64,000 nucleotides of DNA from Camelus ferus (lineage: Eukaryota). The translations under genes were made by a program, and so were the position numbers. The stretch covers positions 33,048,001 through 33,112,000 of the forward strand of contig NC_045696.1 in assembly GCF_009834535.1 (NCBI RefSeq), read 5' to 3'. Each line of letters starts with the position of its first letter. The stretch's first letter is position 1. Below the pieces are notes generated by a model. That model worked only from the letters and a program-made list of their open reading frames with translations. It searched no databases and had not been told where the DNA came from. Of the stretch, positions 1 to 37,007 are shown piece after piece.

Positions 1-1440
<1,440 letters not shown>

Positions 1441-3729: not shown

Positions 3730-4490
3730 GAGTTTTAAGATTGACCCTGAGGGTGGAGTGGAGGATATTGTCTGGAAAGGAGGACTGAGAGAGATGTCTG
3801 AGAGCGAAGTTTGTAAATATCTTGACAGATTTTGGTTATGTTGCTGAGTCCAAACTCGTTCTGCTTGCCACACGACAGGGCAGTAAATGGGGAGACGAGG
3901 TGTTGGGGCAAGGAATAACGACTTTATTTGGAAAGCTGGCAGACCAAGAGGATGGCCGACTAACGTCTTGGAGAACCATCCTGCTCTAGTCAGAATACAG
4001 GTTCCTTTTATACAAAAAATAAGGGAGGGGGTCCGGTTGATTGTTGTAATCTTGCTGCAGGCATCCTTTGTTCTTGCAGCTGTTCCCGTGGGCTAGGTCA
4101 TGGTGAGCCTGTAAACCTCTAACAAAATAAAGGTTATTCTCTACTACAGTTACACAGTTTTAGGCTGTGTCAGAAATCAGTGGATCTACATTCAAAATCT
4201 GTGCATTTTATTGTGTGTAAGTTTTATATTAAAAGAAAAATTATAAATAAATATTGAACTCTAGTCATACTTTGTGTTCTAAAGTATCTACAGTAAAACT
4301 AACTGATGTCTACAATCAATTTACTTGAAATGTGTCCAAAATAAGATAGATTCCTGGATAGGTAGAGGAATCGATACGTATGTTTAAAAAGTAAGTTTCA
4401 CGAAAGTTAATGATATACGGGTATTTATTATAAAATCTTTCCAACTTTGCATTAATTTTGAAAAAATGTAGTAAAATGTTAGGGTAAGCA
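3730..4490 (+). mobile_element. L1ME-type 3' UTR remnant interrupted by a solo LTR
   Basis: Typical L1ME 3' motifs (ctgtgcattttattgtgtgtaagttttata; ctgatgtctacaa...aaaatgttaggg). The sequence rejoins as ...ttttgGTTAcacag across the LTR. Confidence 0.65.
3839..4148 (-). mobile_element. ERV1-class solo LTR (short, probably with an internal U3 deletion)
   Basis: TG...CA termini and a perfect 4-bp TSD GTTA (3835-3838 / 4149-4152). Minus-strand TATAAAA at 4012-4006 and AATAAA at 3928-3923. Confidence 0.85.
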
Positions 4491-7184: not shown

Positions 7185-9290
7185 TGAAATATCATGATTT
7201 GACATTTGCATACATTATGAAATAATAACCACAGTAAGTCTAGTAAACATCTGTCCCCATACAGTTAATACACTATTATTGACCATATTCCTTATGCTGT
7301 ATATTACATCCCCTGGCTTACATATCATGTAACTGGAGGTTTGTATCTCTTAATCCCCTTCACCTATTTCACACTCTCCAACCTCTTCCTCTGGCAACCA
7401 CCCATTTTTTCTTTGTATCTGTTTTCATTTTGTTTTGTTTTGTTTTTTTAAGATTCCACATGTGAGATCGTGTGGTATTTGTCTTTGTCTGACTTGTTTC
7501 ACTTAGGATAATACAAACTAAATCCATCCATGTTGCCCCAAATGGCAAGATCTCACCCTTTTTTATGACAGTAATATTCCATTGTATATACACACACACA
7601 CTACACCTTCTTTATCTATTCACCTATCAATGGACACTTAGGTTCCATATATACTGGCTATTGTAAATAATGCTGCAATGAACATTGTGGTGGGTGCATA
7701 TATCTTTTCAAATGGCTGCTTTTGTTATCTTTGGGTAAATACCCAGAAGTTAAATTGCTGGATAATATGGCAGTTCTATTTTTAATTTTTGAGGAACCTC
7801 CATACTGTTTTACATAGTAGTTGCACCAATTTCCATTCCCACCAACAGCCCACAAGGGTTTCCCTTTTCTCTACATCCTTGCCAACATATGTTATTTGTA
7901 ATATCCATTTGATAGCCATTCTGACAGGTGTAAGGGGATATCTCCTTGTGGTTTTGATTTGCATTTCCCTGATGATTAATGATGTTCAGCATCTTTTTAT
8001 ATGTCTGTCATCCATCTGTATGACTTTGGAAAAATGGCTATTCAGGTCCCCTGCCCATTTTTAATCTTTTTTTTTTTTGACGTTGAGTTGTATGAGTACT
8101 TTGTATATTTTGAATAGTAACCTTTTATTGGATGTATTATTTACAAATATCTTCTTCTGTTCAGTAGGATGCCTTTTTATTTTGTTGACAGTTTCCTTTG
8201 TTTTGCAAAGGCTTTTTAGTTTGATGTAGTCTCATTTGCTTATTTTTCCTTTTGTTTCTTTGCCTGAGGATACAGATCCAAAAAAATACTGCTGAGACTG
8301 ATGTCAGTGAGCGTACTGCCTGTGTTTTCTTCCAGCAGTTTTATGGTTTCAAGTCTTACATTTAGGGTTTTGATTTGTTTTGAGTTTATTTTTATATACG
8401 GTGTGTTCAGTTTGATTCTTTTGCATATAGCTGTCTAGTTTTCCCAGCACCATTTATTAAAGAGGATTTTTTTTTTGACTGTTTATTCTTGCCTCTTTTG
8501 TCCTAGATTAATTGGGCATATAAGTATGAGTTTATTTCTGGGCTCTCTTGTTCCATTGATCTGTACCTCTGTGTTTGTGCCAGTACCATACTGTTTTGAT
8601 TACTGTAGCTTTGTTGTACAGTTTGAAAGCAGGAGGCATGATCTCTCCAGCTTTGTTCTTCTCTCTCAAGATTGCTTTTGCTATTTGGAGGCCTTTGTAT
8701 TTCCATACAAATTTTAGATTTATTTGTTTTAGTTCTATGAAAGTTGCCATTGTTATTTTGATAGAGATTGCACTGGATCTTCAATTTGCCTTGGGTCATA
8801 TGCCCATTTTAACAATGTAAATTCCTCTACTCCGTGAGTATGGTATAATCTTCTCATTTGTTTGTGTCATCTTCAATTTCTTTCTTTAGTGTCTTACAGT
8901 TTTCTGAGTACAAGTCTGTTACCTCCTTAGTTACATTTATTCCTAGATATTTTATCACTTTGTTGCACTTGAAATGGGATTGTTTTCTTGATCTGATAGA
9001 TTATTGTTAGTTTATACAAACAACATTCATGCATATTAATTTTACAAGTTTATTGAAAATACTAGTTTTAGTAGCATTTTGGTTGTGTCTTTAGGATTTT
9101 TTATATGTAGTATCACATTACCTGCAAAGAGTGACAGTTTCTCTTCTTTCTGAATTCCTTTTATTTATTTTTTTCTTATATGATGCCTGTGGTTTGGACT
9201 TTCAATAATATGTTGAATAAATGAGGTGAGACTAAGCATTCTTGTCTTGATCCTGATCTTAAAAGAAATGCTTTCAGCTTTATATCATTG
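7185..9290 (-). mobile_element. 5'-truncated LINE-1 (L1MA9-like), ORF2 C-terminus plus 3'UTR
   Basis: Peptides [30 protein letters not shown]...CWWEWKLVQLLCKTVWRFLK and EILPFGATWMDL. Confidence 0.92.
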
Positions 9291-11303
9291 ACTTCATCTT
9301 CTCTCTCTTTTACCAAATTTTTAAATTAATTTCTTCCATCATAATTTTAATTTCTAAAAGTCTTCTCATGAATGCTAATGGCTCTATTGCATACATATAC
9401 TTGTGGTTTAGAGAGTTAATGACATAGTTTTTACTACTCCTCTCTTTCTGCATCATCTTACTCTTCAGTATACATTTTTTTCTTTCGTGCTGATACTTTC
9501 TTCAAAAGTTTGTGAGTCTTGGTCATCTGTCCATAGTTCAGAAAGACACATGATGGTTGACTGGATAATTGGGTAGTTAGTGTAGGTGGGAGGGTTGACT
9601 AAACCTGTGGGTTTTGCTTTAAGGACATCATGCAGAGAGCTGAGTGCAGCTATAGACAGGTGTGGAGATTTCAGCATTACCTTTAGGTTAATACACTCTA
9701 GAACCTTCTGATCCTTTGGCTGGCAGAGAGATACATGCAGATTATGGAAAAACCGTCCTCATAAGGCTTTTAAATAATTCCTTGTTCCCAAACAGTCATG
9801 ATTCTTCTGCAGTTTGCCATTCCAAGCATTACTGAGTCCTAAGTCTAGAGTTGCACTGGGTCAAAGAACTTCTTGATACCCACTTCTGGAAAGGACATTA
9901 GGCTGCAGCTTTTTCTGTCCATCCTATTAATTTCTAGCCCTGCATAGTCAGACTTCTATTGAAATGTCACTTATTCTAGTAATTTTCTAATATTCCTTCC
10001 TTGTTCTCATTATTATTATGGTGTTATTTACTTTGTTTTTATCATTTTATTTTACTCTCAAGATAGGAAATTAATAAGTAATATTGTTTTCAGTACATCT
10101 ATAAATACAGAGTCAATCAATGAGAACAAAAGTTGTTTTGATGGATAAAACAACTAGAAATTACAGGTTATATCTGATAAGTTAAACTCATCTATCAGTA
10201 TGAGAATCTAATTTATATTTTTATCTTACAGTTTCTGGAAATCCCGACTCACATGTTTAAGTTATTGGAAGCACTACATTTTTTACATGGATATTGTCCT
10301 TTTAAGTACATTGAAAATCCATTCACTGAAATTAAAACTTCTGTTCAGAAAATTGAATGAAGGAAGTGGGGAAACTGTTACAAAGTGAATAGCAAGTGGT
10401 AACATTTTCTTAAACTCTGTTCCAAAAATAGAAAAGTTCTGTAACATGAAACGTACATGAGAATTACATATGAGATGATGTCATTATGCTTTCTGTTGTG
10501 TATTCACTGACTCACTTGACCATCATGCTGTGTTGGATAGCTAATGGTTGAGTCCTACTTGCTCCTGCATGTTGAATTGCATGTGGAGCATGTGCTCTTT
10601 TTTATGTGCCCAGTGGTAAAAGTTTTATGAAGCGATATGCAGATATATTAATGAGAAGAAATGACATATTTATAAAATTTCAAGTTTAATACCAGAGATA
10701 TTAAGAAAAAGTTTTATTCTGATACAGACCCTTCAAAGGATAAACCAGACAGATTGAGGTAAATGTATTAGTGGTGTACAATCTGCTAAATTGTGATATT
10801 ATACACAGTTGAGTGTTTAAACATTGGATTTCTCAAATTATAGCTTGCCAGTTACGGTTCTAAAATGGGAACTTTAAAGCCTCTTTAAATTGGAAGCATG
10901 TAGTTCTCCCCCCAGAAAAGAAAAGAACAAAATATACTTGAAGGTAATACATTTGCCAGCCTTAGTGAGTATCTGAACTCTCAATTTCCCATCAGATTAC
11001 CTTAGGTAGTAGTACATATTCAAAAAATTATATAGCAGGTTTTATTTAATATTCCCTAATATTTCAAAGAGGATCATAGCAGGAGGCACACATTAGAATT
11101 TTAAATTTGAGAAGGAAAAGGCTACAAATATTATAAATTATGAATGCTAAATTTTGATGGGATAGAGTCCATGAATACTTTAACATTCTGTAGTAGTTGC
11201 ATACACTAGAAGTCAACTGCAAAGAAGCACAAGCAAAACTGTAGACCTTATTTAAAAATGCCATCTCCACCCCCTCTTGGGGCAGTATATGAAAGCCTGA
11301 CTT

Positions 11304-11865
11304 TGTTTAATTGAAGTATAGTCAGTTTACAATGTTGTGTTAATTTCTGGTGTACAGCATAGTGATTCAGTTACACGTGTACCTGTATATTCCTTTTCAT
11401 ATTCTTTTTCATTATGGGTTATTACAAGCTATTGATACAGTTCCCTGTGCTATACAGCAGGACCTTGTTTGTCTAGTCTGTATCTAGTAGTTTGTATCTG
11501 CTAATCCTAAATTCCTGATTTATCCCTCCTCACTACCCCCCACCCCATAGCCATAAGTTGGTTTTCTATGTCTGTGAGTCTCTCTGTTTTGTAAATAAGT
11601 TAATTTGTGTCCTTTTTTTAAATTAGATTCCACATATAAGTGATATCATATGGTACTTTTCTTTCTCTTTCTGGCTTAGTATGACAGTCCCCGGGTCCAT
11701 CCATGTTGCAGCAAATGGCATTATTTCATTCTCTTTTATGGCTGAGTAGTATTTCATTGCATCTGTCTATCTGTCTGTCTGTCTATGTCACATCTTCTTC
11801 ATCCAGTCAGTCATCTGTCAATGGACATTTAGGTTGTTTCCATGTCTTGGCTATTGTAAATAGCG
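11304..11865 (-). mobile_element. Young lineage-specific L1 3' end (camelid/cetartiodactyl type) with TSD
   Basis: Starts ttaattgaagtatagtcagtttacaatgttgtgttaatttctggtgtacagc. TSD gaaagcctgactt (11291-11303) / gagagcctgactt (11866-11878). Confidence 0.9.
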
Positions 11866-13535: not shown

Positions 13536-13974
13536 TGTCAACTGAAATAAAAACACACAGTGTGAGAGCTGTTTCAGTTTTATTACTGAGGACTGTAGCG
13601 CAGGAGAAGGCGTCCCAGAGTTGGCCCTCCAGGGAGGCGAGGGTGGAGGTCAGCATGTATGTAATTGTGGAGAAGAGGTACATGCGAGCGAGCACACAGC
13701 TTGGTAGAAGGTTGCTACCAGTCGAGAGGCACAGATACCTCAATTCATTATTTTAGTGCTTTTCTAAGTATGGGAAGATGCAAGAAATTGGCTTCATAAA
13801 ATTTCCTGAAAATATCTAACCATCCGAAGGCCCATTCTGCTAGTTTTCCCAGAGCACAGAGTGCCTCATTCCTGATCTCTGCTCCTTCCAGGGTATGTTG
13901 AAAGTCAGCGACTGCAGTGGCCAATAACTTAGTCCTTGTAGAGCCAGATGGCGAGTGACATCCTTCAGTTGGCA
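13536..13974 (-). mobile_element. ERV1 solo LTR, MER41-like (cetartiodactyl type)
   Basis: TG...CA ends and near-TSD attt/gttt. Characteristic block tttagtgcttttctaagtatgggaagatgcaagaa...cctgaaaatatctaac...cccagagcacagagtgcctcattcctgatctc...agttggca. Confidence 0.8.
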
Positions 13975-16126: not shown

Positions 16127-17524
16127 TCAAGGATATACAATAGAGTAAAGACAGGCTCTTCAACAAGTGGTGTTGGGAAAACTGGACAGCCACATGTAAA
16201 TCAGTTAAGTTAGAACACTCCCTCACACCACACAAAAAAATAAACTCCAAATGGCTTAAAGATTTAAATATAAGACAAGACACTATACACCTCCTAGAAG
16301 AAAACATAGGCAAAACATTTTCTGACCTAAATCTTAGCAGTGTTCTCCTTAGGGTAGTCTACCCAGACAAGAGAAATAAAAGCAAAAATGAACAAATGGG
16401 ACCTAATTTAACTAATGAGCTTTTGCACAGCAAAGGAAACCATAAGTGAAACAAAATGACAGCCTATGTAATGGGAGAAAATATTTGCAAAGGATGAGAC
16501 TGACAGGTGCTTAATTTCCAGCATATATAAACAGCTCACATAGCTTAATAACAACAACAACAAAAACAGAAACAATCCAATCCAAAAATGGACAGAAGAC
16601 CTAAAAAGCAATTCTCCACTGAAGACATACAAATAGCCAATAGGCACATGAAAAAATGGTCAGTATTGCTAATGATCAGAGAAATGCAAATCAAAACTAC
16701 CATGAGGTATCACCTCACACCAGTTAGAATGACCATTACTTAAAAGTCCACAAATGATAAATGCTGGAAAGGGTGCAGAGAAAAGGGAACCCTCCTACAC
16801 TGTTGGTGGGAATGTAGTTTGCTGAAACCATTGTGGAAAGCAGGATGGAGTTTCCTCAAAAGACTGAAAACAGACTTACCAGTTGATCCAGCAATCCCGC
16901 TCCTGGGCATATATCCAGAGGGAACTTTAATTCAAAAAGACACCTGCACCCCAATGTTCATAGCAGCACTATTTACAATAGCCAAGACATGGAAACAACC
17001 TAAACATCCATTGACAGATGACTGGATAAAGAAGTTGTGGTATATTTATACAGTGGAATATTGTTCAGCCATAAAAAAGAATAAAAATAATGCCTTTTGA
17101 AGTAAAAGGGATGGACCTAAGTGAAGTAAGCCAGAAAGAAAAAGAAAAATACGATATGCTGTCACTCATATGAGGAACCAAAAAAAAAAAAAAAAAGAGG
17201 GAGAGACACAAATGAACTTATTTACAAAACAGAAACAGATTCACAGACATAGAAAACAATCTTATGGTTACCAGTGGGGAATGGGGGTGGGAAAGGATAA
17301 ATTGGAGTTTGAGATTTGCAGATACTGACTACTATATATAAAATAGATATATAAGAAGTTTCTTCTGTATAGCACAGGGAACTATATTCAATATCTTGTA
17401 ATAACCTATAATGAAAAAATATGAAAACGAATATATTTATGTGTATGTATAACTGAAACATTATGCGATACACCAGAAATTGACACAACATTGTAAACTG
17501 ACCATACTTCAATAAACAAACAAA
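16127..17524 (+). mobile_element. Young 5'-truncated L1 (ORF2 C-terminus plus 3'UTR) with 14-bp TSD
   Basis: Peptide [40 protein letters not shown] and an A-rich tail. TSD aaagaacaagaaag at 16113-16126 and 17525-17538. Confidence 0.95.
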
Positions 17525-18487: not shown

Positions 18488-19178
18488 GTCATTACCTTTT
18501 ATCTGGTGATCTTTATAAGTAAATTTGAGATATTATTTAAAGACCAACACTTAATTCCTCATTCAGATACACTTGAAAAACAGACAACTTCAACATAAAC
18601 TGATTATGAATATATTTCTTCCATGAAGAACTAATCATTACTGAAAATTACCATTATTTGAAAATAAAGGCCTTTATAAACAGTGAAATCCCATTTAAGC
18701 CCAGGTGTTTGTAAGAAAATAATACATTTTTATGATTCTACCTTTTGAAAATGGTACTTAGGCAAGAAGGTATAAAGTCCCTGTTTTTTGTTCACCCCAC
18801 TGTCTCGACAAATACATACATCAACTTTAAACTTTGTCCAGTTTGAAGAAGTCACAGAACTTCCCTATGTAACTTTCACTGTATATAGTGATTATTTCAC
18901 CTAAATTCTTCATGCTAAACCTCAGAATGTTAAATGATTCATCCAAAGTCAAATGATTGGTACTTGGAAGCCAGCCCTTTTATTTCCTTGAATATCAAAA
19001 TATTTCTTGATATAGATCAAATGTCATTAAACATAGATAATGTAAGTTTTCCTTTAATATTTACCTGCTTACAGAATTATTGGGTTAGTATTATCTTTCA
19101 AAAGTTTTTTTTTAAGATTTTTAATATTATCTTATTTGCTTTTAGTTACCTCTTTCTCTTGGATAATCAAACTTAGTG

Positions 19179-19245
19179 AATATATATAATATATATATAA
19201 ATATACATATACACATATATTTATATATATATTGTATATATATAT
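19179..19245. repeat. Imperfect (TA)n microsatellite
   Basis: Direct inspection. Confidence 0.85.
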
Positions 19246-19532
19246 GTTTTTCAGTTATCAAGGTTATTAAAATGTTCCTCACTGAACCAGACTAAATCTG
19301 ACAGTAATCAATCAGAACCTCTACAGGTGACCTTGTAACTAGCTATGTAACTTGCTAAATGTTTTACTTCAGCTACTAATAAGTTTAACAAAAAGACCAA
19401 AAAAAGTCGTGTCAATGCAAAGTTTAATCAGATGTTTCTTTTCCTTGAAATTCTAAGTTGTTTTTGTTTTTTGTTTTTTGTTTTTAACTAGAAAGTGGTG
19501 TATGAGCTTTTCTATATGGCTATGTTTCTTTT

Positions 19533-19701
19533 TTTTTTTTTTTTTTTGAGTAAAGGTAGATTTATTCAGAGAGATACATTGAAAGGCACGAGAAAGGCCA
19601 TGAGGTGTGGGGGTTGGGTGCTCAGATTAAAAGTAGGTACACACTCCATAGACAGAGTGTGGGCCGTCTCCGTCTCCAAAGAGGGAGGGAGAGGGGACAG
19701 C
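19533..19701 (-). mobile_element. L1-mobilised short retroposon derived from an ERV1-LTR R-like region (poly(A) plus TSD)
   Basis: 154-nt body (19548-19701). AATAAA (19566-19561) lies 13 nt before the A-tail (T-run 19529-19547). 13-bp TSD ctatgtttctttt (19520-19532 / 19702-19714). The motif acggcccacactctgtctatggagtgtgta...ctctctgaataaatctacc resembles laurasiatherian ERV1 LTR R regions. Confidence 0.8.
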
Positions 19702-19882
19702 CTATGTTTCTTTTATCTGCAGCTTTAAAAAAATTATGTGATGATGATCTTTCCAGTATTTTTAGATACTTTTAGCTCTTATGACACCTAACATTTTAGA
19801 TATTACAGACTTATATAATCAAATCATGTGCAATTTTTGTTTTTCCTTTAAAAATGAAGATTGTTACTTCACATCCTTTTTT

Positions 19883-20290
19883 GTTCACTCATCCATTTAT
19901 CTGGTGTTTATTGGGCAACTATGTTGTGTCGGGGACACACAATAAAAAACATGAAATTCCCACCCTCATAACATTTACATTCTAATGTGGAGATAAATAA
20001 GAAACAGAGGGAAAAAAATCCTTTCTATTTCAGAAAGTTTAAGTGCTGGAACAAAATAAAGCGGTGTAAACAGGGAGAGAACAAAGGCAGGGTGGCAGGT
20101 GTGCTGTTTTACAGAGGAGGTGGGGAGGGGTGGATGGAGCCGGTGCAGACACCTGAGTCCGGGGAAGAGCTGGGGGAGGGGCTTCATGGGTAGAAGGTGA
20201 GCAGGTGCGAGTCCTGAGCCCAGAGTGAGCCTGGAGGCATGAGGGAGCAAGCAGCCGAGTCGGCTGCACAGGGAAGGTGATAGAAAGCTC
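19883..20290 (-). mobile_element. L2 3' portion
   Basis: ttcactcatccatt...tttattgggcaactatgttgtg...ccctcataacatttacattctaatgtggagata. Confidence 0.65.
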
Positions 20291-20299
20291 AGAGAAGAG

Positions 20300-20534
20300 C
20301 AGGCCCAGCCCTCACATTTCAGGATGGGGCTAGAGTCCAAATGAAGGTTCCAGATCACATGCCTAAAATTAAAAAGTTCTAAATCAAGCTGCAGTCACGG
20401 CCTGGCCAGCATCCCTACCTCACGACCTGGAGGTTGAAGGGGGCTTTTCTCTTTGGCCAGGCTTGGGGCCTCTGAGCCTGGTTGAGAGCACTGATGAGTT
20501 GAGGCTGGGCAGAGGGGAACCTGGGGTGGTACTC
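20300..20534. mobile_element. hAT-Tip100 non-autonomous element (MER115/Zaphod-like), internally deleted
   Basis: 5' end gctagagtccaaatgaaggttccagatcacatgcctaaaattaaaaagttctaaatcaagct and 3' end ...ggggtggtactc resemble the recalled consensus. No clean 8-bp TSD. Confidence 0.5.
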
Positions 20535-22023: not shown

Positions 22024-23246
22024 AAAATTTTTTTTTAACTTTTCAATTTAATTGAAGTCAGCTACAGTGTCTCAATTTCTGGTGTACAGCATAATATCCC
22101 AGTCATACATACATATATGTACATATATTTGTTTTCATGTTCTTTTTCATTAAAGGTTATTACAAGATACTGAATATAGTTACCTGCATTATACAGAACA
22201 AATTTGTTTTTTTAATCTATTTTTATATAGAGTACTTAATATTTGCAAATCTCAAACTCCCAATTTATCCCTTCCCACCCCCGTTTCCCCAGGGACCGTA
22301 AGATTGTTTACTATGTCTGGGAGTCTGTTTCTGTTTTGTAGATGAGTTCATTAATGTCTTTTTTCTTTTTTAAAATGCCACATATGAATAATATCGTATG
22401 GTATTTTTCTTTCTCTTTCTGGCTTACTTCACTTAGAATGATGATCTCCAGATCCATCCATGTTGCTGCAAATGGCATTATTTTATTCTTTTTTTTTTTT
22501 TTTTACAGCTGAGTAGTATTCCATTGAATAAATATACCACAACTTTATCCAGTCATCTGTCAATGGACGTTTAGGTTGTTTCCATGTCTTGGCTGTTGTA
22601 AATAGTGCTGCTGTGAACATTGGGGTGCATGTATTTTTTCAAATTAGAGTTCTCTCTGGGTATACCTAGGAGTGGGATTGCTGGATCATATGGTAAGTCT
22701 GTTTTTAGTCTTTTGAGGAGTCTCCACCCTGTTTTCCATAATGGCTACACCAAACTACATTCCCACCAACAGTGTAGGAGGGTTGCCCTTTCTCCACACC
22801 CTTTCCAGCATTTATCATTTGTGGACTTTTAAATGATAGCCATTCTGACTGAGGTAATACTTCATTGTAGTTTTGATTTGCGTTTCTCTGATAATTAACA
22901 ATATTGAGCATTTTTTATGTGCCTATTAGCCACTTATATATCTTCACTGGAGAGTTGCTTGTTTAGGTCTTCTGTCCATTTTGGGGTTGGGTTGGCTTTT
23001 TTGTTATTAAGTTGTATCAGCTGTTTATATATTCTGGAAATTAAGCTTTTGTCAGACTCATCATTTGCAAATATTTTCTCCCATTCCATAGGTTTTCATT
23101 TTGTTTTGCTTATGGTTTCTTTTGCTGTGCAAAAGCTTATAAGTTTAATTAGGTTTCATTTGTTTGTCTTTGCTTTCAATTTCTATTGTCTGGGTAGACT
23201 GCCCTAGGAGAACATTGCTAAGATTTATGTCAGAGAGTGTTTTGCC
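22024..23246 (-). mobile_element. Young 5'-truncated L1 with TSD, same subfamily as 16127-17524
   Basis: The 3'UTR and ORF2 C-terminus are homologous to the 16-17 kb copy. TSD ttgtattgagagg at 22007-22019 and 23247-23259. Confidence 0.95.
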
Positions 23247-23469
23247 TTGTATTGAGAGGTTTTTACGATATCTAGATTGCCTTGTTTTCAGAAGTTTTCT
23301 GAAGTTGTGGGCAGGGAGGAGAGAGAGAAGAGAGAAAGGGGGAGAAGTGGGGAAAGGAGGGAGGGAGGAGGGTTTCTTTATAGAAATAGTACCAAGGAGT
23401 AGAACTAACTGCATTTTATTCAGAGCCCTAAAATTCACTGTATATTTGGGACATGAAGTTACCCAGGAT

Positions 23470-36908: not shown

Positions 36909-37007
36909 TTTTTTTTTTAACTGAAGTATATTCAATTTACAATGTTGTGTTACTTTCTGGTGTACAGCATAGTTATTCATTTCCCTATATACGTATTTAC
37001 ATGTAAA
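36909..37007 (-). mobile_element. Extremely 5'-truncated (~100 nt) young L1 3' end
   Basis: T-run plus aactgaagtatattcaatttacaatgttgtgttactttctggtgtacagc. TSD acctatc(c/t)ttt at 36901 and 37008. Confidence 0.8.

What the first reader, a model, noticed from the sequence alone, without database searches (positions are those of the whole stretch)
19520..19714. ERV-LTR R-region RNA retroposed by L1: a candidate SINE-like family without a Pol III head
Seen: a 154-nt minus-strand insert (GCTGTCCCCTCTCCCTCCCTCTTTGGAGACGGAGACGGCCCACACTCTGTCTATGGAGTGTGTACC...CTCTCTGAATAAATCTACCTTTACTC). It has AATAAA 13 nt before a pure A-tail, a perfect 13-bp TSD (ctatgtttctttt) and a TTTT/A L1-endonuclease-type site. 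There are no TG...CA ends, no short integrase-type TSD, no tRNA A/B boxes and no L1 tail. Established: a long TSD plus poly(A) at TTTT/A is the hallmark of L1 target-primed reverse transcription. Inference: the body looks like the stretch of an ERV1 LTR between transcription start and poly(A) site. A solo LTR may therefore be making a tiny Pol II RNA that is polyadenylated at its own signal and hijacks L1. If this is high-copy with uniform 5' ends, it is a lineage-specific LTR-derived non-autonomous retroposon that repeat annotators would label as an 'LTR fragment'. The clean tail and TSD suggest it is young and possibly polymorphic.
Basis: partly seen in the sequence, partly recalled or inferred. 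Interest (0 to 1): 0.75.

Follow-up and report, generated by a model that had tools for sequence, protein, structure and literature searches.

The report
L1-copied fragment of abundant LTR-like repeat
This is a real 154-base insertion made when the LINE-1 machinery copied a short polyadenylated piece of a very common, probably retroviral-LTR repeat; the process is already described (tarsier TINEs), and whether such copies form their own family in this mammal is still open.

Summary
In detail: a 154-nt minus-strand body, AATAAA 13 nt before an A-tail, an exact 13-bp target-site duplication and a TTTT/A site. It is an L1 target-primed retrocopy. Laying public contigs on it showed that the body is part of a very abundant repeat: 1,851 and 3,026 contigs in DNA-type runs of two organisms, with summed depth thousands of times the flank (a rough signal, not a copy number). 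That excludes a single-gene 3'UTR. The 5' junction is present in both organisms, which weakens 'polymorphic'. The decisive question, how many relatives are tailed and share this 5' end, did not complete. The tool masked the tail side, no host genome or repeat library was available, and most relatives seem to run on upstream into further repeat, as full LTRs would. LTR identity rests on anatomy and recall. The proposed concept is in print: tarsier TINEs (about 30,000 LTR-derived, Pol II-made, L1-mobilised copies, PMC5059674). Best reading: a TINE-type retrocopy of an LTR R-region RNA (0.45). Close rival: a 5'-truncated copy of a longer LTR-ended RNA, as with HERV-W (0.35). It is not a SINE by definition. 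At best a new lineage example of a known kind.

The parts
19702..19714 (-). 5' copy of the 13-bp target-site duplication (starts with the A4 of the L1 endonuclease site on the element's strand)
19548..19701 (-). 154-nt body: piece of an abundant interspersed repeat, probably the cap-site-to-poly(A) stretch (R region) of an ERV1-type LTR
   Evidence: bounds; 1,851 and 3,026 related contigs in two DNA-type runs; LTR identity inferred
19666..19677 (-). 6-bp tandem duplication near the 5' end, private to this copy or nearly so
   Evidence: two identical hexamers; relatives leave the alignment at 19670-19672; this locus's own contigs stop at 19643, exactly 30 nt below 19673
19561..19566 (-). AATAAA polyadenylation signal, 13 nt before the tail; last body base plus first tail base give a CA cleavage site
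19533..19547 (-). pure poly(A) tail, 15 nt outside the TSD (19 with the TSD's A4)
19520..19532 (-). 3' copy of the 13-bp target-site duplication

Best explanation
A TINE-type retrocopy. One copy of an abundant LTR family, probably a solo ERV1-type LTR, was transcribed by Pol II from its own promoter in the germ line. The RNA was cleaved and polyadenylated at the LTR's own AATAAA about 150 nt later. L1 ORF2p nicked TTTT/A in an AT-rich site, primed on the A-tail and copied the whole short RNA, leaving a 13-bp TSD. The copy lacks the upstream promoter, so it is a dead end. SHOWN: the insertion hallmarks; membership of a very abundant repeat; presence in two organisms. INFERRED from established L1 biology: trans-mobilisation by L1. 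INFERRED only: LTR origin, the 5' end being the cap site, a solo-LTR source. OPEN: whether tailed copies number one, tens or thousands.
For: TSD, tail and target site. AATAAA 13 nt before a CA cleavage site, the spacing of a normal Pol II 3' end rather than an L1 tail (established knowledge). No TATA inside the body, as expected downstream of a promoter. Depth across the body is thousands of times the flank and drops to about flank level at the 5' junction. Relatives appear to continue upstream in repeated sequence (median loose ends 58-71 letters in X1 and 51-65 in X10, at 19670-19672), as a longer parent element would. A 5' hairpin opens at nucleotide 1 (whole-body z -2.82, 3 of 200 shuffles as stable). 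The same mechanism is described for TINEs.
Against: One copy cannot distinguish a cap site from a truncation point, and 5' truncation is the usual L1 outcome (established knowledge). The parent LTR was never seen: no host genome and 0 hits in 7 of 7 collection scans. The tail side 19454-19556 was skipped by the tool, so no other tailed copy was seen. The 5' hairpin overlaps the private 6-bp duplication, so it may not exist in the source. No short RNA was shown: all runs laid were contigs.
Confidence: 0.45

Rival explanations
1. A 5'-truncated L1 retrocopy of a longer RNA that ends at this LTR family's poly(A) site: a proviral genomic or env RNA (HERV-W-type processed pseudogene) or a host transcript terminated by an LTR. 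The 154 nt are simply where reverse transcription stopped.
For: All hallmarks fit equally. HERV-W processed pseudogenes end at R with poly(A), TT/AAAA and 5-15 bp TSDs, and more than half lack the 5' LTR (PMC5016936 passages). The 5' end lies next to a pyrimidine-rich tract, and relatives continue beyond it.
Against: No internal or U3 sequence is retained. The start at a G, the absence of TATA in the body and the R-like length fit a cap-site start (inference). HERV-W-type copies in the revised set are mostly 1-7.5 kb.
Confidence: 0.35
2. The abundant family is itself a non-LTR, L1-dependent element (an SVA-like composite or other non-autonomous retroposon ending in this sequence). Most relatives would then be tailed, and this is a truncated 3' end.
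For: Very high abundance with length variants and tandem-unit joints (contigs going back 41-56 bases). The tail side of relatives was not seen.
Against: Depth peaks mid-body, not at the 3' end (partly an edge effect of masking). The camelid repeat surveys whose passages I read list almost only MIRs as SINEs and no such family, though the host lineage is only my inference.
Confidence: 0.13
3. A truncated processed pseudogene of a single-copy cellular 3'UTR.
For: Poly(A) signal, tail and TSD are what any mRNA retrocopy shows.
Against: 1,851 and 3,026 distinct contigs with many variants lie on the body; a single-copy UTR would give a handful.
Confidence: 0.03
4. A deleted remnant of a solo LTR next to a chance T-run, or an assembly artefact.
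For: The region is T-rich and the relatives are abundant.
Against: Exact 13-bp TSD directly bounding body and tail, against 3 of 49,044 background. The 5' junction is reproduced with 0 differences over 297 bases in runs X1 and X10.
Confidence: 0.02

Closest known systems
Tarsier TINE1/2 and TINE3 (Schmitz et al. 2016, PMC5059674; main-text passages and supplementary file 1 part 1 read; the consensus figure itself is an image and was not seen)
   Same: Short, A-tailed, L1-mobilised copies of an RNA started at an LTR's TATA-driven Pol II promoter and cut at the LTR's own poly(A) signal; no Pol III head; earlier listed only as SINE-like repeats.
   Different: TINEs are shown to be families (29,041 and 1,668 copies, 26,938 TINE1/2 full length) with named parents (LTR77_TS; a MER83B-like LTR). 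Here one tailed copy is shown, the parent is unnamed and the lineage is different. Homology to TINE parents was not tested; an independent origin is assumed.
HERV-W processed pseudogenes (Grandi et al. 2016, PMC5016936; passages read)
   Same: ERV RNA retroposed by L1, ending at R with poly(A), a TT/AAAA site and a 5-15 bp TSD.
   Different: Those copies are collinear with proviral mRNA (R-U5...U3-R) and mostly 1-7.5 kb; this insert is 154 nt with no recognisable internal part.
SINEs as defined by SINEBase (PMC3531059; passages read), including camelid vic-1
   Same: Short, non-autonomous, LINE-dependent, A-tailed.
   Different: SINEs need a tRNA, 5S or 7SL-derived head and Pol III transcription; none was detected here.
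SVA / SINE-R (recalled, not read)
   Same: An ERV LTR supplies the poly(A) signal of an L1-mobilised element.
   Different: SVA is a composite with hexamer, Alu-like and VNTR parts and carries env-U3-R; none of that lies inside this TSD.

Membership tests
L1 target-primed insertion | variable-length TSD (about 5-20 bp) | tested here: met
   13 bp exact
L1 target-primed insertion | 3' poly(A) tail | tested here: met
   15 A outside the TSD
L1 target-primed insertion | TTTT/AA-type endonuclease site | tested here: met
   TTTT/AT, one base off consensus
TINE-type LTR retrosequence | body derived from an LTR | not testable with these tools
   No repeat library or host genome; 7 collection scans empty. 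The body is multi-copy and relatives run on upstream. Likeness to cetartiodactyl ERV1 LTRs is recalled only.
TINE-type LTR retrosequence | 3' end at the element's own poly(A) signal | tested here: met
   AATAAA 13 nt before the tail. Relatives align through the signal with no variant listed at 3% or more in 19557-19588.
TINE-type LTR retrosequence | 5' end at the LTR transcription start, downstream of TATA | not testable with these tools
   Parent sequence not available; no TATA in the body is compatible but not proof
TINE-type LTR retrosequence | many tailed, mostly full-length copies | tested here: inconclusive
   Abundance shown, but the tail side was skipped by the tool, and loose-end lengths lean towards longer parents
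TINE1/2/3 proper | homology to LTR77_TS or MER83B-like LTR; tarsier-specific | not tested
   Consensus figure not held as text
SINE (SINEBase definition) | head similar to tRNA, 5S or 7SL RNA / Pol III promoter | tested here: not met
   0 Rfam hits, 0 ARAGORN genes, no A or B box by pattern
SINE (SINEBase definition) | at least 100 copies of the short element | tested here: inconclusive
   one search does not separate tailed copies from parents
HERV-W-type processed pseudogene | collinear with proviral mRNA (R-U5...internal...U3-R) | tested here: not met
   Only 154 nt between the TSD copies; an extreme 5' truncation is not excluded
solo LTR | TG...CA ends with a 4-6 bp TSD | tested here: not met
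   ends GCTG...ACTC, 13-bp TSD

The most novel reading that the evidence does not exclude
This lineage (probably camelids, reported as nearly free of young SINEs) carries an undescribed family of hundreds to thousands of about 150-nt, A-tailed, 5'-uniform retroposons made from one or a few solo-LTR masters: an independent origin of the tarsier TINE strategy, hidden in annotations as 'LTR fragments'. The short form seen here, which lacks a stretch that longer relatives carry before the poly(A) block yet is itself abundant, could be that family's diagnostic subtype.
Probability: 0.25. Interest if true: 0.55.

Novelty: new member of a known kind. Interest (0 to 1): 0.3.

Why it matters
As a single insertion it is ordinary: one more L1-made retrocopy. 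If a genome-wide count shows many tailed copies with one 5' end, it would be an independent case of the TINE route, in which a dead LTR becomes a Pol II master gene for a SINE-like repeat. In my last TINE search (2016 onward) only the tarsier paper came up. It would show that the route recurs in mammals, correct repeat annotation and dating in this lineage (copies miscounted as solo-LTR fragments), and give clean presence/absence markers in a group with few young SINEs. The test is a simple genome search.

Tried and rejected
Host genome not held. Exact-motif scans found 0 loci in viral contigs, metagenome contigs (17, 22) and genome contigs (53, 58); these are mostly microbial collections, so the blanks say nothing about the mammal. 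Sequence look-up among earlier findings: 0 windows; word and place look-ups empty. Motif searches of paper text gave 0 papers and 2 unrelated papers (listing only). An internal tandem duplication inside this copy's body was tested and is not significant (683 of 1,000 shuffles score as high), although joints in relatives suggest repeated units there. No empty-site joint appeared in 4 of 4 runs, but the left flank had no cover, so this is uninformative. RNA run X15 holds 574 family contigs and also flank contigs, so it cannot show a short RNA; X19 holds 2. A crude exon scan gave 8 candidates, none convincing, so host-gene context is unknown. Passages of camelid papers name no such element. Supplements of PMC8605555, which may hold camelid repeat libraries, were not readable and could already list this family; those of PMC6675863 were listed but not read.

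Full report
Observation. The 13-mer at 19520-19532 recurs exactly at 19702-19714, cannot be extended, and occurs nowhere else in the window. Between the copies lie 15 T (19 with the TSD's own four) and a 154-nt body, 19548-19701. On the minus strand the body has AATAAA at position 136, with 13 nt between it and the tail. The last base and first tail base give a CA cleavage site. The target reads TTTT/AT on the nicked strand. Only 3 of 49,044 13-mers in the window recur at 100-400 nt, this one included, and only 1 of 14 long A/T runs has such a partner. The body is 51% GC in flanks of 25-30%. It has no TG...CA ends, no A box, B box or TATA by simple patterns, no Rfam match and no tRNA. It has no relative in the window, including the window's L1 3' ends. 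By established L1 biology this is a target-primed retrocopy of a Pol II-type polyadenylated RNA.

Host. No whole genome is held. The window is mammalian non-coding DNA with L1 pieces; self-comparison showed only L1-like repeated blocks and no repeated short SINE-like element. I take it to be camelid from recall of the L1 3' ends and from the lack of young SINEs. This is not tested, and the run labels are coded. Camelid surveys report MIRs as nearly all SINEs (PMC8605555 passages; PMC6675863 passages); SINEBase also lists the tRNA-type vic-1.

Abundance. Of 24 runs listed, 14 hold 0.98-0.99 of the words of 18800-20400, under two organism labels, A and B; 6 of the 14 are flagged as possible sources. 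I laid 4 of the 24 on 19340-19939 at 80% likeness: X1 (A), X10 (B) and RNA runs X15 and X19, none flagged. Contigs laid were 1,851 of 5,840,716, 3,026 of 10,085,075, 574 of 3,238,187 and 2 of 5,825,885. Summed depth relative to the single-copy right flank was about 2,800 (X1) and 5,900 (X10) over the poly(A)-signal bin and about 9,600 and 18,000 at the mid-body peak. The tool states that this is no copy number. Overlap of short contigs alone could inflate it 1.4- to 4-fold, so I claim only an order of thousands for the family. This rules out a single-copy 3'UTR.

This copy against its relatives. One base (19589) differs from about 99% of the family depth in X1, X10 and X15. The other listed sites are family variants at up to about 60%. 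The 6-bp tandem duplication at 19666-19677 is private or nearly so: relatives leave the alignment at 19670-19672, and this locus's own contigs stop at 19643, 30 nt below 19673. Relatives come in length variants. Some carry extra sequence at 19583 (24, 23 and 11 contigs), some at 19628 (62, 53 and 23), and some show joints going back 41-56 bases, which suggests tandem units. Others align gap-free over 19557-19657, so the short form here is a shared subtype. Only the best-supported rows were shown: 219 loose-end rows and 5,497 pieces were hidden.

The family question. The tool skipped 19454-19556 as repeat, so neither the tail side of relatives nor the left flank was seen, and no second tailed copy was observed. 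On the 5' side, depth falls to 29 and 48 times flank in 19680-19699, but the private duplication breaks alignments there, so this does not map 5' ends. The loose ends at 19670-19672 (195 contigs in X1, 222 in X10) have median lengths of 58-71 and 51-65 letters. This copy's own junction contigs run 2,475 and 986 nt into unique flank. My inference is that most of those relatives continue upstream into further repeated sequence, as full LTRs would into U3, rather than ending at a uniform 5' junction. This supports a longer parent and leans against tailed copies being the bulk of the family. It is weak (average contigs are short, and agreement among loose ends is only 0.49-0.61) and does not exclude a tailed subset.

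Age. Contigs spanning the 5' junction match 19643-19939 with 0 differences in both X1 and X10. The insertion is therefore shared by both organism labels. The perfect TSD and pure tail say it is not ancient, but 'polymorphic' has no support. The runs were chosen for holding the sequence, so polymorphism was not tested.

Expression. X15 holds family contigs and flank contigs alike; contigs cannot show ends, strand or level. No short RNA is shown. The body folds somewhat better than shuffles (z -2.82; 3 of 200), with hairpins at 1-38 and 40-61; the first overlaps the private duplication.

Mechanism. Most likely (0.45): an LTR copy was transcribed from its own promoter and cut at its own AATAAA, and L1 copied the whole short RNA. 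Close rival (0.35): 5' truncation of a longer LTR-ended RNA. Less likely: the 3' end of a composite non-LTR parasite (0.13), a cellular UTR (0.03), an artefact (0.02). The L1 insertion step is near certain under the first four. LTR origin was not testable: 7 of 7 collection scans were empty, and my sense of likeness to cetartiodactyl ERV1 LTRs is recall.

Comparison with what is known. Schmitz et al. 2016 (PMC5059674; passages and supplementary file 1 part 1) describe 29,041 TINE1/2 and 1,668 TINE3 copies in tarsier. They derive from LTRs with a working Pol II promoter and internal poly(A) signal and are mobilised by L1. A reviewer comment in PMC3183009 (passage) already describes TINE1 as polyadenylation at a solitary LTR. 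HERV-W processed pseudogenes give the long-RNA version (PMC5016936 passages). The insert works like a TINE but is not filed as one: parent, cap site and copy number are untested. It fails the SINE head test (definition from PMC3531059 passages). I found no camelid example in print in searches (listings) or in the passages read. That library lacks most subscription papers and Repbase reports, and the supplements of PMC8605555 were unreadable, so prior annotation is quite possible.

Verdict. A real insertion of a known kind. Interest 0.3. The bold reading, an independent TINE-like family in a SINE-poor lineage, remains open at about 0.25 and would merit 0.55; one genome search settles it.

Noticed in passing
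window 13536-13974: About 440-bp element bounded by TG...CA with a near-perfect 10-bp terminal inverted repeat: looks like an older solo LTR (read by eye); no similarity to the insert.
   Followed up: no
window about 3839-4150: Stretch starting with TG that resembles a cetartiodactyl ERV LTR in minus orientation (recalled likeness); a different family from the insert.
   Followed up: no
window 16308-17487 and 22068-23247: Two L1-like 3' ends in opposite orientation, 81% identical over 1.2 kb, on either side of the insert; further related pieces at 7412-8504, 11302-11863 and 36909-36982.
   Followed up: partly
window 19577-19670 (relatives): The parent family has several length variants and joints that skip 48-67 or go back 41-56 bases, suggesting a variable tandem-unit region just upstream of its poly(A) signal.
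   Followed up: partly
window 19637, 19660, 19665: Variant shares in RNA run X15 differ from the DNA runs (0.20 vs 0.09-0.12; 0.28 vs 0.42-0.46; 0.13 vs 0.25), hinting that a subset of family copies is over-represented in that library; contig depths, one run, weak.
   Followed up: no
window 1-530: GC- and CpG-rich stretch running directly into old L1-like sequence.
   Followed up: no
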